Assembly (NCBI GenBank): GCA_963781585.1
Contig: CAWAGQ010000008.1
Span: 288,001 to 352,000, forward strand
Direction of reading: 5' to 3'
Source of the DNA: an uncultured Gemmatimonadaceae bacterium
GTDB lineage: Bacteria > Gemmatimonadota > Gemmatimonadetes > Gemmatimonadales > Gemmatimonadaceae
DNA: 64,000 nucleotides
Below the pieces are notes generated by a model, which saw only the letters and a program-made list of their open reading frames with translations, had not been told where the DNA came from and did no database searches. Made by a program: the position numbers and the translations under genes. Of the stretch, positions 45,590-48,203 are shown in pieces (the stretch's first letter is position 1; every line of letters begins with the position of its first letter).

Positions 45590-46702
45590 TCAGTCCACAA
45601 GTCGCAGCGGCATGACAAGACAAAGGTAGCTTCCCGGCCCGCCCCAGTCATGCGGCGTAATCGTCGCCGCTCGCTCCGCCGTCTTGAAAGTAAAGTCCAC
45701 TTCATCGGTCGGCATGTACCTGAGGATCTCCAGCAGGTAGCTGCTGTTGAACCCGATATCTAGCGGATCACCAGCATACTGCACCGGAATCTCATCCTGG
45801 CCCTCGCCAACATCAGGCGTCTGCACCGTGAAGCGCAACAAGGCAGTGTTGAACGACAGTTTCACCCGGTGCGTCTGATCCGAGGCCACTACGGCCATTC
45901 GCCGTAGCGCGCCTATGAGCGACACGCGGTCCACGACCGCAACGCGGTCGTTGTCGCGGGGGATAACCTGATCGTAGTTCGGATACGGGCCTTCAATGAG
46001 GCGGGTTGAGACACTCGCGAGGGGACTCCGGAACGCCAAGTGGCTTTCCCCTTGACCGATTTCCACTTCCTCATCGGGCGGGAATACACGCCGTACCTGC
46101 TCCAGCGCCTTCGGTGGGAGGATGAAGTCGCCCGTGGCCTCCATGCCCAGTTCTCCCGGAACATCCGTCATGGCGAGCCGGTGTCCATTCGTCGCCACCA
46201 TTCGGAGCTGCTCCGGTCGGATCTCCCACAACACACCGTTCAGAATGGGCCGACTCTCTTCGGTAGAGACCGCAAACGCCGCTCGCGAAATCAGATCCTG
46301 CAGCACGCTGCCTTTCAGCCGCCACCCAGAATTGAAATGGACCGCGGGGAATGCAGGAAACTCGTCCCTGGGCAACCCTAGCAGCTTGAACCTGGCTCTC
46401 CCACACTCCAGGGTCGCTCGCTGCTCACCCATTGCCGCAATCTTCACCGGGCCAGGGGGAAGCTCACGAGCAATCTCACCGAGCCGCTTCGCTGGCAGGG
46501 TCAGTGCGCCTGCTGCATCGACTTCAGCAGGTACCTCAACCGAAACCAACACATCCAGATCCGTACCAGAAAAGCGTACACTCCGTTCACCCGCCTCCAC
46601 GAGCAGATTCGACAAGACGGGCAACGTGGTTTTGCTGGGAACGGCCGCTGCAACACTCGTGAGTGCCTCCTGGAGCTTCTCCCGCGCTATCGTGAAGCGC
46701 AT
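45590..46702 (-). CDS. dnaN: DNA polymerase III beta sliding clamp
   Basis: MRFTIAREKL, GTDLD, RPILNG, VATNGHRL, RLIEGPYPNY, LVMPLR. Confidence 0.97.
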   Translation of the reverse strand: MRFTIAREKLQEALTSVAAAVPSKTTLPVLSNLLVEAGERSVRFSGTDLDVLVSVEVPAEVDAAGALTLPAKRLGEIARELPPGPVKIAAMGEQRATLECGRARFKLLGLPRDEFPAFPAVHFNSGWRLKGSVLQDLISRAAFAVSTEESRPILNGVLWEIRPEQLRMVATNGHRLAMTDVPGELGMEATGDFILPPKALEQVRRVFPPDEEVEIGQGESHLAFRSPLASVSTRLIEGPYPNYDQVIPRDNDRVAVVDRVSLIGALRRMAVVASDQTHRVKLSFNTALLRFTVQTPDVGEGQDEIPVQYAGDPLDIGFNSSYLLEILRYMPTDEVDFTFKTAERAATITPHDWGGPGSYLCLVMPLRLVD

Positions 46703-46900
46703 GTCGGGACCTCGAGTGGAGAATTGATCTTCTGCATCTGTTATGAAAGAGAATACAGTAGTAACAGAGGTGTGGAGATGTTGGGGAATTTGGGGATCAT
46801 GAGCGAACCTGGGGGAGCTCCAGGAGAGCGGTATTGAGGCGATTCGCAAAGCTCGGGTCGCTCTTTCGTAACTGACGGGCGCGGTCGAGACTGTGGATAA
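46703..46900. other. Candidate oriC (dnaA-dnaN intergenic region)
   Basis: AT-rich stretch, trio-like cag-tag-taa-cag (46756-46767), three co-oriented degenerate DnaA boxes (46771, 46782, 46791) and a perfect tgtggataa at 46892-46900. Confidence 0.75.
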
Positions 46901-48203
46901 CAGTGGAGTGGTCGCGACCGCCGAAGGCGAGTCCGATCTCGGTAAGGTGCGCATTCAACAATTCGCGGGCGAGCAACATGGCTGCTTGACGTGGAATGGT
47001 TACCTGACGCGTCCGGCTCTTGGATGCGAGAGCGGTGCTCGTAACACCCCATGCATGCGCAACGGCAGCTTGGATCGCGATAATGGAAAGTCGAGCATGG
47101 TGTGGGGTGGTATCGAGAGCTACGCTCCCCGCGGGATCCGGCAAACGGTCGCGGAGTGCCTCAAGTGCCAGATCGATGCTGACGGGTTGCTGCCGTAGCG
47201 ACGCATAGGCGAGGAGCTTGATAATGCATCCTTCGAGCTCCCGAACGCTCGACCGTATGTGCTCGGCGATCAGCTGAAGAACTTCTTCAGGGATGGCGTG
47301 CTGCAGGTGGTCTACCAGAGCCTTCTTCTGCAAGATGGCGATCCGGTGCTCAAAATCGGGCAGTTCGATGTCCGCGACCATTCCCCACTGAAAGCGCGTC
47401 ACGAGTCGGGTTTCCATTCCAGCAATATCTGCCGGGGGGCGATCGCTCGTGAGCACAATCTGACGCCCAGCCTCGTATAGGGCGTTGAAAGTATGGAAGA
47501 ACTCTTCCTGAGTTGCTTCCTTTCCCTTCAGGAAATGGACGTCGTCGATGAGGAGGAGGTCGAGTTCACGATAGCGGCGACGGAAATCGTGTGTGGTGCG
47601 GCCCTGAATAGACGCGACGTACTCGTTGGTAAACTGCTCGGCGCCCACGAAAACAGCCCTCGTTGCAGGCAGACGCCCAAGAATGGCGTGTGCGACGGCC
47701 TGCATGAGGTGGGTCTTGCCGATGCCTGAGACTCCGTAGATGAAGAGCGGGTTGTACAGGCGCCCAGGCGATTCCGCTACAGCGAGCGCTGCGGCGCCAG
47801 CCAACTCGTTGGACTTGCCGATTACGAAGTTCTCAAAGGTGTATTGCGACCGTAACGCAGGACGCACGGCAGCGGGACCGGTTCTGGGATTCGTCTCGGA
47901 TTTGGCAGGGGTCAATGGGACAAAGAGATCCATCTGTAACCGTTTCTGCGAGTGGGCGTCGACGATGAACTCCACCGCACACGGCTCCCCGAGGGCGACC
48001 GGCGCAAGACTCGAGAGTAAAGAAGCATGTTTGGATTCGTTCCAAGATGCTGCGAATTGATCTGGCGAAGCGACGATCAGGGTGCTGCCGCGCACCTCAA
48101 CGGGCCGAGTCGGCTCGAGCCAAGTACGAAAGGCCTGCTCCGGTACCTCACGCCGCGCGCATTCAAGGAGACGCTGCCAAACTTCGTCGAGCGCGAGGTC
48201 CAT
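46797..48203 (-). CDS. dnaA: Chromosomal replication initiator
   Basis: YTFENFVIG, YNPLFIYGVSGIGKTHL, LLIDD, QEEFFHTFN, GGRDHSTVIHS; ATG 48203 after AGGAG. Confidence 0.98.
   Translation of the reverse strand: MDLALDEVWQRLLECARREVPEQAFRTWLEPTRPVEVRGSTLIVASPDQFAASWNESKHASLLSSLAPVALGEPCAVEFIVDAHSQKRLQMDLFVPLTPAKSETNPRTGPAAVRPALRSQYTFENFVIGKSNELAGAAALAVAESPGRLYNPLFIYGVSGIGKTHLMQAVAHAILGRLPATRAVFVGAEQFTNEYVASIQGRTTHDFRRRYRELDLLLIDDVHFLKGKEATQEEFFHTFNALYEAGRQIVLTSDRPPADIAGMETRLVTRFQWGMVADIELPDFEHRIAILQKKALVDHLQHAIPEEVLQLIAEHIRSSVRELEGCIIKLLAYASLRQQPVSIDLALEALRDRLPDPAGSVALDTTPHHARLSIIAIQAAVAHAWGVTSTALASKSRTRQVTIPRQAAMLLARELLNAHLTEIGLAFGGRDHSTVIHSLDRARQLRKSDPSFANRLNTALLELPQVRS

What the first reader, a model, noticed from the sequence alone, without database searches (positions are those of the whole stretch)
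47922..47936. DnaA carries a beta-clamp-binding-like motif (QMDLF) in its domain II linker
Seen: residues 90-94 of DnaA read QMDLF, at the start of the normally unconserved linker. Known: QL[SD]LF-type pentapeptides dock on DnaN, and in E. coli the clamp inactivates DnaA only through the adaptor Hda, which supplies such a motif. Inference: DnaA here could bind the clamp directly, giving Hda/YabA-independent coupling of initiation to elongation. A 5-mer can arise by chance, so conservation is decisive.
Basis: partly seen in the sequence, partly recalled or inferred. Interest (0 to 1): 0.75.

Follow-up and report, generated by a model that had tools for sequence, protein, structure and literature searches.

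The report
Clamp-binding-type motif conserved in DnaA linker
The replication initiator DnaA of a whole order of Gemmatimonadota keeps, inside an otherwise free-varying flexible linker, a five-residue peptide of the kind that docks proteins onto the DNA sliding clamp, which suggests that here the initiator may bind the clamp directly and not through an adaptor protein.

Summary
Residues 90-94 of DnaA (window 47922-47936, minus strand) read QMDLF. They lie eight residues after the last strand of domain I, in a stretch that AlphaFold2 models as disordered.

All 115 DnaA orthologues examined from three families carry Q-[MI]-D-[LFM]-F at this spot. The rest of the linker varies freely, and the codons show many synonymous changes.

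The motif is not phylum-wide:
- 0 of 24 DnaAs from sister orders have it.
- 0 of 6 from two other families have it.
- 10 of 10 from another class have Q[MI][DEN]LW at the same place.

Supporting context:
- The DnaN pocket residues are invariant.
- DnaE1 (QGSLF) and MutS (QLPLF) of the same genome carry ordinary clamp motifs.
- No Hda reached its cut-off in 151 phylum genomes, and no YabA was found in this genome.
- A co-fold of DnaN with the linker gave only weak support.

Direct clamp binding is probable (about 0.65) but unproven. Its consequence, negative coupling or clamp recruitment, is inference.

The closest precedent is the plasmid initiator TrfA.

The parts
47922..47936 (-). Codons for QMDLF (DnaA residues 90-94), the clamp-binding-type pentapeptide
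   Evidence: Q-[MI]-D-[LFM]-F in 115 of 115 orthologues of the order. 33 distinct 18-mers among 54 loci show selection at the protein level.
47910..47942 (-). Extended conserved island, residues 88-98 (RLQMDLFVPLT; order consensus R-P-Q-M-D-x-F-V-A-P-P)
   Evidence: Per-column counts in 55 orthologues: R88 54/55, Q90 55/55, M91 54/55, D92 55/55, F94 55/55, V95 52/55, A96 45/55, P97 43/55.
47856..47945 (-). Domain II linker (residues 87-116), predicted disordered
   Evidence: AlphaFold2: residues 87-111 have pLDDT under 50 and are coil in full-length DnaA. The same holds for residues 1-150 folded alone. Column entropy is about 3 bits for residues 99-115.
47961..48203 (-). DnaA domain I (residues 1-81)
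   Evidence: Pfam DnaA_N. pLDDT above 90, last strand 76-81.
46797..48203 (-). dnaA, whole gene (468 aa plus stop)
45590..46702 (-). dnaN (beta sliding clamp, 370 aa plus stop), directly downstream of dnaA; the proposed docking partner
   Evidence: Three DNA_pol3_beta Pfam domains. Matches solved beta clamps at E = 6.5e-61. Pocket residues invariant in 45 of 45 orthologues. dnaN lies downstream of dnaA in 54 of 55 loci of the order, 49 of them full length.

Best explanation
QMDLF is a short linear motif of the beta-clamp-binding type, built into the disordered linker of DnaA just after domain I.

I propose that it inserts its Leu-Phe pair into subsite I and its Gln-Met pair into subsite II of the hydrophobic pocket of DnaN, as polymerases, MutS and Hda do. 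Clamps loaded on DNA after initiation could then capture DnaA directly. The most likely consequence is negative coupling of initiation to ongoing elongation. DnaA would be held on clamps behind the forks, away from oriC. Possibly two DnaA molecules would be brought together on the two pockets of one clamp ring, so that DnaA's own arginine finger promotes ATP hydrolysis. In function this is the Hda (E. coli) or YabA (B. subtilis) bridge with the adaptor left out.

Shown here: the motif, its disorder, its strict conservation under protein-level selection, and an intact pocket in DnaN.
Inferred: the binding itself (my odds about 0.65), and the direction of the effect (negative about 0.45, positive about 0.15, with the rest of the 0.65 undecided).
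For: (1) Conservation. Q-[MI]-D-[LFM]-F is present in 115 of 115 DnaA orthologues from three families of the order: QMDFF 73, QMDLF 35, QMDMF 4, QIDLF 2, QIDFF 1. Linker residues 99-115 have about 3 bits of entropy.

(2) The changes that occur are mostly ones clamp motifs are known to tolerate. Met or Ile at position 2 has a precedent in B. subtilis DnaE QMGLF (passages of PMC3919608). Leu or Met at position 4 has a precedent in E. coli alpha QADMF (passages of PMC11139829). Gln1, Asp3 and Phe5 never change. Asp is the slightly preferred residue at position 3 and QLDLF is the strongest binder.

(3) Selection acts on the protein. There are 33 distinct 18-mers among 54 loci, with synonymous variants at every degenerate codon.

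(4) The motif lies in a disordered stretch (pLDDT under 50, coil) and does not dock on the rest of DnaA in the models.

(5) The partner is competent. The residues matching the E. coli pocket list of the review (R152, L155, T172, G174, H175, R176, L177, P242, V247, N320, Y323, M362, P363, R365) are present and invariant in 45 of 45 DnaNs of the order (list).

(6) The same genome uses ordinary motifs of this kind: DnaE1 QGSLF at residue 946 and MutS QLPLF in its C-terminal tail.

(7) A second lineage, another class, has Q[MI][DEN]LW at the same position in 10 of 10 DnaAs. Its DnaN differs at pocket positions: L362V, A345G and R367K in 10 of 10. This is only one evolutionary event, so it is a hint and no more.

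(8) Co-fold of DnaN with DnaA residues 76-121: weak support.
- Median score 0.55 (runs 0.62, 0.34, 0.55). The best of 3 controls scored 0.00.
- The mark was reached by 116 of 157 solved complexes and 2 of 215 mismatched pairs.
- Scores of 0.60 or under came from only 18 of those 157 solved complexes and from both mismatches that passed.
- The runs agree in at least 58 % of contacts, and the partner's pLDDT is at least 39.
- Clamp-peptide complexes are solved, so the pass may come from memory.

(9) No adaptor was found. No Hda reached its cut-off in 151 phylum genomes, and no YabA was found in G000.

(10) dnaN follows dnaA in 54 of 55 loci.
Against: - Position 4 is Phe in 74 of 115 orthologues. 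The review defines this position as Leu or Met.
- In the other class the last residue is Trp. The review says a Phe-to-Trp change weakens binding of the alpha motif.
- The conserved flanks are not part of any described clamp motif: Arg at -2, Val at +1, and Ala-Pro-Pro after that. The upstream flank is basic, whereas the review describes the flanks as mostly acidic.
- Sister orders of the same class lack the motif (0 of 24) and show no substitute adaptor. They have only DnaA as a DnaA-family match. The function is therefore dispensable or lineage-specific.
- The co-fold support is weak and no interface was reported.
- Direct DnaA-DnaN contact is not the rule elsewhere. It was negative in an S. 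aureus two-hybrid matrix (passages of PMC3762901).
- For a RIDA-like outcome there is no Hda arginine finger in trans. The idea that clamp-paired DnaA molecules hydrolyse ATP by themselves is speculation.
Confidence: 0.5

Rival explanations
1. The motif does bind DnaN, but with a positive role. DnaA at oriC would recruit or position the clamp, and through it the polymerase, for replisome assembly. The plasmid RK2 initiator TrfA does this through its own clamp-binding motif.
For: All the evidence for clamp binding listed above applies equally. There is a precedent: TrfA lacking the Leu-Phe pair of its motif cannot bind the clamp, and the TrfA-clamp complex is key for replisome assembly at oriV (passage of review PMC4980987).
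Against: Chromosomal replisome assembly in studied bacteria needs no contact between initiator and clamp. Sister orders with the same dnaA-dnaN arrangement do without the motif (0 of 24). Nothing in the sequence separates a positive from a negative role.
Confidence: 0.15
2. The island is a docking peptide for a partner other than DnaN. Candidates are the replicative helicase or its loader, a lineage-specific regulator of DnaA, or a protease or adaptor that uses it as a degron. On this reading, its likeness to clamp motifs is a coincidence of short hydrophobic peptides.
For: The conserved unit is longer than a clamp motif: R-x-Q-M-D-x-F-V-A-P-P. Phe at position 4 (74 of 115) and Trp at position 5 in the other class are non-canonical. 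Sister lineages carry different conserved islands at the same linker position: RL[DV]FP[ED][LI] in 5 of 5 DnaAs of family f6 and PE[IV][ST]V in part of f7. The spot therefore looks like a general docking site whose partner may vary. The co-fold with DnaN was only weak.
Against: Gln1 and Phe5 are invariant, Asp3 is the optimal residue, and the L/M/F interchange at position 4 matches clamp motifs closely. No other described bacterial motif known to me fits. No candidate partner gene was found to co-occur with the motif. The tandem DnaA paralogue occurs in the order but not in the Trp-variant class.
Confidence: 0.25
3. The island has no partner. It would be a structural cap of domain I or an intramolecular latch onto domain III, or its conservation would reflect an overlapping nucleotide signal.
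For: It sits only eight residues after the last strand of domain I, and a short helix (residues 83-87) precedes it.
Against: AlphaFold2 gives pLDDT under 50 and coil for residues 87-111 and models no docking onto domain I or III. Synonymous variation (33 distinct 18-mers among 54) argues against a nucleotide-level signal. Sister orders have domain I without it.
Confidence: 0.05

Closest known systems
Hda (E. coli) and HdaA (Caulobacter): regulatory inactivation of DnaA (RIDA)
   Same: It links DnaA to the DNA-loaded beta clamp through a Gln-led clamp-binding peptide in a disordered segment (Hda: QLSLPL at its N-terminus; passages of PMC11139829). The expected logic is the same: loaded clamps report that elongation has begun.
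   Different: In RIDA the motif sits on a separate AAA+ adaptor, which by my recollection also supplies an arginine finger. Here the motif is on DnaA itself, and no Hda reaching its cut-off was found in 151 phylum genomes. Stimulation of ATP hydrolysis is untested.
YabA (Bacillus subtilis)
   Same: It bridges DnaA and DnaN and is thought to tether DnaA to the replisome or to limit DnaA cooperativity at oriC without stimulating hydrolysis (passages of PMC5295017). A DnaA-borne motif could give the same tethering.
   Different: YabA is a separate tetrameric zinc protein. The YabA Pfam family has no match in G000.
TrfA, replication initiator of plasmid RK2
   Same: It is a replication initiator that itself carries a clamp-binding motif and binds the beta clamp through its Leu-Phe pair (passage of PMC4980987).
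   Different: TrfA is a plasmid Rep protein unrelated to DnaA, and its motif acts positively in replisome assembly at oriV. No chromosomal DnaA with such a motif turned up in my searches.
Canonical clamp-binding motifs of polymerases and MutS (QL[SD]LF; Q-aliphatic-x-[L/M][F/L])
   Same: The pentapeptide pattern, its location in a disordered region, and the invariance of positions 1 and 5. The same genome has QGSLF in DnaE1 and QLPLF in MutS.
   Different: Phe at position 4 in most orthologues, and conserved extra flanks (Arg at -2, Val at +1, Ala-Pro-Pro). The host protein is the initiator, which is not on the published partner list (Table 1 passages of PMC11139829).

Membership tests
Beta-clamp-binding motif (Q-aliphatic-x-[L/M]-[F/L], review PMC11139829) | Gln at position 1 | tested here: met
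   Q90 in the window. Gln in 115 of 115 orthologues.
Beta-clamp-binding motif (Q-aliphatic-x-[L/M]-[F/L], review PMC11139829) | Aliphatic residue at position 2 | tested here: met
   Met in 112 and Ile in 3 of 115 orthologues. There is a precedent for Met: B. subtilis DnaE QMGLF (PMC3919608).
Beta-clamp-binding motif (Q-aliphatic-x-[L/M]-[F/L], review PMC11139829) | Leu or Met at position 4 | tested here: inconclusive
   The window itself has Leu, so it meets the feature. Across the order the counts are Leu 37, Met 4 and Phe 74 of 115. Phe is outside the published definition.
Beta-clamp-binding motif (Q-aliphatic-x-[L/M]-[F/L], review PMC11139829) | Phe or Leu at position 5 | tested here: met
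   Phe in 115 of 115 orthologues. The variant in the other class has Trp in 10 of 10.
Beta-clamp-binding motif (Q-aliphatic-x-[L/M]-[F/L], review PMC11139829) | Lies in a disordered tail, linker or exposed loop | tested here: met
   pLDDT under 50 and coil for residues 87-111. The N-terminal fragment gives the same picture.
Beta-clamp-binding motif (Q-aliphatic-x-[L/M]-[F/L], review PMC11139829) | Binds the hydrophobic pocket (subsites I and II) of DnaN | not testable with these tools
   Only a prediction was possible. The co-fold gave weak support: score 0.55, best control 0.00, with the calibration counts given in the For line. The pocket residues of DnaN are intact and invariant.
Hda / RIDA adaptor (NCBIfam TIGR03420) | A separate short DnaA-like AAA+ protein scoring over the family cut-off, with an N-terminal clamp motif | tested here: not met
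   None of 151 phylum genomes has a match over the cut-off, and G000 has none. The only DnaA paralogue is a 596-aa tandem AAA+ protein with no N-terminal extension and no QxxLF. Caveat: in the control genomes only E. coli passes this cut-off, so divergent Hda-like proteins could be missed.
YabA (PF06156) | A YabA-family protein is present | tested here: not met
   No match in G000 at E <= 0.01. The genome is 93.5 % complete. Relatives were not searched.
DnaA (TIGR00362) | Full four-domain initiator scoring over the family cut-off | tested here: met
   480.1 bits against a cut-off of 343.9. DnaA_N, Bac_DnaA and Bac_DnaA_C are found.

The most novel reading that the evidence does not exclude
An adaptor-free form of regulatory inactivation of DnaA. 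In Gemmatimonadales, and with a Trp variant in a second class that either gained it separately or kept it from a common ancestor, DNA-loaded clamp rings would bind two DnaA-ATP molecules through their linker motifs. The clamp would place their AAA+ modules head to tail, so that DnaA's own arginine finger fires ATP hydrolysis. Initiation would then be shut off by the first loaded clamps without any Hda- or YabA-like protein.
Probability: 0.15. Interest if true: 0.85.

Novelty: new variant of a known kind. Interest (0 to 1): 0.62.

Why it matters
In both model bacteria, the link between the initiator and the sliding clamp needs an adaptor: Hda in E. coli and YabA in B. subtilis. Most phyla have neither, and how they prevent re-initiation is an open question.

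A clamp-type docking peptide fixed in DnaA across an entire order gives a simple hypothesis for such lineages: the coupling is built into the initiator. The hypothesis can be tested directly in several ways:
- peptide binding to purified DnaN
- a Leu-Phe mutant in a cultured Gemmatimonas
- DnaA ATPase assays with loaded clamp

The finding also shows that the 'unconserved' domain II can hide lineage-specific docking motifs. Different islands occur at the same position in sister lineages. Systematic mining of DnaA linkers may therefore uncover further regulators.

Tried and rejected
- Generality outside the phylum. Of the 150 best HMMER representatives (34,381 proteins had E <= 0.001, but only 150 were returned), 5 had a strict motif before domain III.
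  - 3 of the 5 were from this order.
  - P0248 (QADLF) shares its motif with none of 16 relatives, so it is a chance case.
  - P0165 (QLSFF) has only one relative, 81 % identical and with the same motif, which is too little to judge.
- Complementarity between the motif and a DnaA paralogue was rejected. The order has both the motif and a tandem paralogue. Families f6 and f7 have neither. The Trp-variant class has the motif only. Families f11 and f12 have a single-module paralogue only.
- The tandem paralogue as a hidden Hda was rejected. It starts directly at the AAA+ module, has no QxxLF, and sits after an MglA-like GTPase gene. Earlier notes of this scan read it as a polarity or signalling protein.
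- IS21 IstB accounts for one weak DnaA-like match in G000.
- DnaA boxes. There were 8 matches to TTATCCACA with up to one mismatch in the window, against 4.26 expected, and no cluster at dnaA. This gives nothing for or against the finding.
- Papers I could not read. Dalrymple 2001 and Kurz 2004 are not held. I therefore could not check whether those surveys listed any DnaA, or how often Phe occurs at position 4.

Full report
**What is at the coordinates.**
- The window holds dnaA on the minus strand (46797..48203, 468 aa from MDLALDEVW), followed directly by dnaN (45590..46702).
- DnaA scores 480 bits on TIGR00362 against a cut-off of 343.9 and has DnaA_N, Bac_DnaA and Bac_DnaA_C.
- The reverse complement of 47922-47936 encodes QMDLF, residues 90-94.
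- Names attached to close database relatives place the genome in Gemmatimonadota, family Gemmatimonadaceae.
- The window is G000:C8:288001-352000 of a 5.7-Mb assembly in 17 contigs, 93.5 % complete with 7.2 % contamination.

**Is the motif in the linker?**
- AlphaFold2 was run on residues 1-150 with 55 aligned sequences, and on the full protein with 54.
- Both models give domain I (residues 1-81) at pLDDT above 90, with the last strand at 76-81 and a short helix at 83-87.
- Coil follows. In the full-length model, residues 87-111 have pLDDT under 50.
- The motif does not pack on domain I or III in either model.
- It therefore behaves as a short linear motif at the start of a disordered linker.

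**Conservation within the order.**
- I collected DnaA from relatives with the genome search (41 genomes; 151 genomes of the phylum) and fetched the loci.
- In the first 55 orthologues of the window's order (three families), the alignment columns give Q90 55/55, M91 54/55, D92 55/55, F94 55/55, R88 54/55 and V95 52/55.
- Position 93 is Leu, Phe or Met. Residues 99-115 have about 3 bits of entropy and gaps.
- Sixty further genomes of the order all carry the motif.

| Variant | Genomes (of 115) |
|---|---|
| QMDFF | 73 |
| QMDLF | 35 |
| QMDMF | 4 |
| QIDLF | 2 |
| QIDFF | 1 |

- Eleven further order genomes with a DnaA match were not examined, only for lack of fetch calls: G009, G019, G030, G032, G035, G036, G061, G104, G145, G151 and G171.
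- The 18 bases encoding the island occur as 33 distinct sequences in 54 loci, with synonymous variants at all degenerate codons. Selection therefore acts on the peptide.
- The second dnaA copy of the assembly (C5, 94 % identical) also reads QMDLF.

**Conservation outside the order.**

| Group | DnaAs with a Qxx[LMFI][FLWI] peptide between domain I and domain III |
|---|---|
| Other orders of the same class | 0 of 24 |
| Families f11 and f12 | 0 of 6 |
| Family f10 (another class) | 10 of 10, as Q[MI][DEN]LW at the same position |

- Two same-class genomes (G085, G149) and one f10 genome (G050) were not fetched.
- The feature is thus order-wide, not phylum-wide, with a related Trp variant in a second lineage.
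- That pattern means either two gains or an old motif lost several times.
- Sister lineages carry other conserved islands at this spot: RL[DV]FP[ED][LI] in 5 of 5 DnaAs of family f6, and PE[IV][ST]V in part of f7.

**A chance control.**
- Among the 150 best HMMER representatives, 5 had a strict motif before domain III. Three of them belong to this order.
- One other DnaA with QADLF at residue 91 shares it with none of its 16 relatives.
- Another, with QLSFF, has a single 81 %-identical relative with the same motif.
- This shows what an unselected pentamer looks like and sets off the 115 of 115.

**Does it look like a clamp-binding motif?**
- The 2024 review (passages read) defines natural motifs as Q-aliphatic-x-[L/M]-[F/L] or Q-aliphatic-x-[L/M]-x-[F/L].
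- In that review, Asp is slightly preferred at position 3 and QLDLF is the strongest binder.
- The window's QMDLF fits the definition.
- Met at position 2 has a precedent in B. subtilis DnaE QMGLF (passages of PMC3919608). Met at position 4 has one in E. coli alpha QADMF.
- Against the fit: Phe at position 4 (74 of 115) is not in the definition. The review reports that Phe-to-Trp at the last position weakens the alpha motif, which bears on the Trp variant. The conserved flanks (Arg at -2, Val at +1, Ala-Pro-Pro) belong to no described motif.
- The review's partner table does not list DnaA.

**The partner.**
- DnaN is an ordinary beta clamp, matching solved clamps at E = 6.5e-61.
- Residues with the identities the review lists for the E. 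coli pocket occur at the corresponding places: R151, L154, T171, G173, H174, R175, L176, P241, V246, N319, Y322, M364, P365 and R367.
- All of these are invariant in 45 of 45 DnaNs of the order. The E. coli R246 position is Gln here.
- The numbering was mapped by offset and conserved blocks, not by a printed alignment to the E. coli chain.
- The Trp-variant class differs at three of the positions compared: L362V, A345G and R367K, in 10 of 10. This is compatible with a roomier subsite I, but it is one event on the tree.
- The same genome has standard motifs in DnaE1 (QGSLF, residue 946) and in MutS (QLPLF in the C-terminal tail).

**Co-fold.**
- DnaN (alignment of 45 rows) was folded with DnaA residues 76-121 (alignment of 50 rows). 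The verdict was weak support.
- The median score was 0.55 (runs 0.62, 0.34, 0.55). The best of three controls scored 0.00.
- The mark was reached by 116 of 157 solved complexes and 2 of 215 mismatched pairs.
- Scores of 0.60 or under came from only 18 of the 157 solved complexes and from both mismatches that passed.
- The runs agree in at least 58 % of contacts, the partner's pLDDT is at least 39, and no interface was reported.
- Clamp-peptide complexes are in the PDB, so the pass may reflect likeness rather than binding.

**Adaptors.**
- The Hda model TIGR03420 is over its cut-off in none of 151 phylum genomes and not in G000. In the control genomes only E. coli passes, so the test is strict.
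- The YabA family has no match in G000.
- The only DnaA paralogue in the order is a protein of about 600-700 aa with two DnaA AAA+ modules.
  - It has no domain I, II or IV, no N-terminal extension and no QxxLF.
  - It has a conserved C-terminal REKVVWDWP...EELR tail and is encoded after an MglA-like GTPase gene.
  - Earlier notes of this scan on other genomes read it as a polarity or signalling protein. I did not test that reading beyond seeing the neighbourhood and the tail.
- The distribution of the paralogue does not mirror that of the motif.

**Literature.**
- Five full-text searches found no report of a clamp-binding motif in a chromosomal DnaA. This is judged from the search listings and from passages of four papers:
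  - DnaA + clamp-binding motif + domain II, 10 papers.
  - DnaA + sliding clamp + related terms, 32 papers.
  - Gemmatimonas + DnaA, 9 papers.
  - Hda-independent phrasing, 0 papers.
  - DnaA-DnaN interaction phrasing, 1 paper.
- Reviews state that both model organisms use an adaptor that binds DnaA and DnaN, and that domain II is unstructured and poorly conserved (passages of PMC5295017).
- An S. aureus two-hybrid matrix scored DnaA-DnaN as negative (passages of PMC3762901).
- The nearest precedent is the RK2 plasmid initiator TrfA, whose motif binds the clamp and is needed for replisome assembly at oriV (passage of PMC4980987).
- Dalrymple 2001 and Kurz 2004 were not available.
- No earlier finding of this scan covers the motif.

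**Verdict.**
- I put direct docking of DnaA on DnaN at about 0.65.
- Within that, I favour negative coupling of the Hda or YabA type with the adaptor built in (about 0.45) over TrfA-like clamp recruitment (about 0.15).
- A different partner for the peptide stands at about 0.25.
- It is a new variant of a known kind: a clamp-motif client, and initiator-clamp coupling.
- It can be tested with simple binding assays and one mutant.
- The tally includes the unpublished genome G008. No motif count rests on it.

Noticed in passing
G000:C4:354275-355864 (outside the window; L033:1483-3273): A 596-aa DnaA paralogue made of two tandem DnaA-type AAA+ modules. It has no domain I, II or IV and carries a conserved C-terminal REKVVWDWP...EELR tail. 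It is encoded right after an MglA-like GTPase gene and is conserved across the order. Earlier notes of this scan describe the same family in other Gemmatimonadota genomes.
   Followed up: partly
L136-L140 (genomes G042, G044, G046, G049, G051): Families f11 and f12 of the phylum have a single-module DnaA-like AAA+ paralogue of about 340-390 aa. It has an acidic tail ending in a similar I-x-E-W..E-x-D-R-L..E motif, so it is probably the unduplicated form of the tandem protein.
   Followed up: no
G000:C5:329942-331342 (outside the window): A second dnaA copy, 94 % identical to the window's. A MutS-like stretch with two in-frame stops lies about 18 kb away, at the same spacing as dnaA and mutS on contig C8. 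Contamination of the assembly is 7.2 %, so this is probably a co-binned close strain or a large duplication.
   Followed up: no
L066, L069, L073, L079, L081 (family f6); L076, L078, L080, L082-L084 (part of f7): Sister orders lack the Q-led motif but carry other conserved islands at the same place, just after domain I. Family f6 has RL[DV]FP[ED][LI] in 5 of 5 DnaAs, and part of f7 has PE[IV][ST]V..V. The start of the DnaA linker looks like a general site for lineage-specific docking peptides.
   Followed up: no
L093-L098, L100-L103 with L141-L150 (family f10, another class): DnaA has Q[MI][DEN]LW at the same linker position in 10 of 10 genomes. The DnaN of the same genomes differs from all other DnaNs of the phylum that I compared at three pocket positions: L362V, A345G and R367K. 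This could be a compensatory change for the larger Trp.
   Followed up: partly
window 46892-46900 (-): A perfect DnaA box, TTATCCACA, lies inside the 3' end of the dnaA coding region. There is no cluster of boxes around dnaA: 8 matches with up to one mismatch in the window against 4.26 expected. oriC was not located.
   Followed up: no
P0165 and P0287 (database DnaAs of a low-GC lineage): Two DnaAs, 81 % identical to each other, both have NSEQLSFF at residue 91, the same position after domain I. With only two sequences, conservation cannot be judged.
   Followed up: partly
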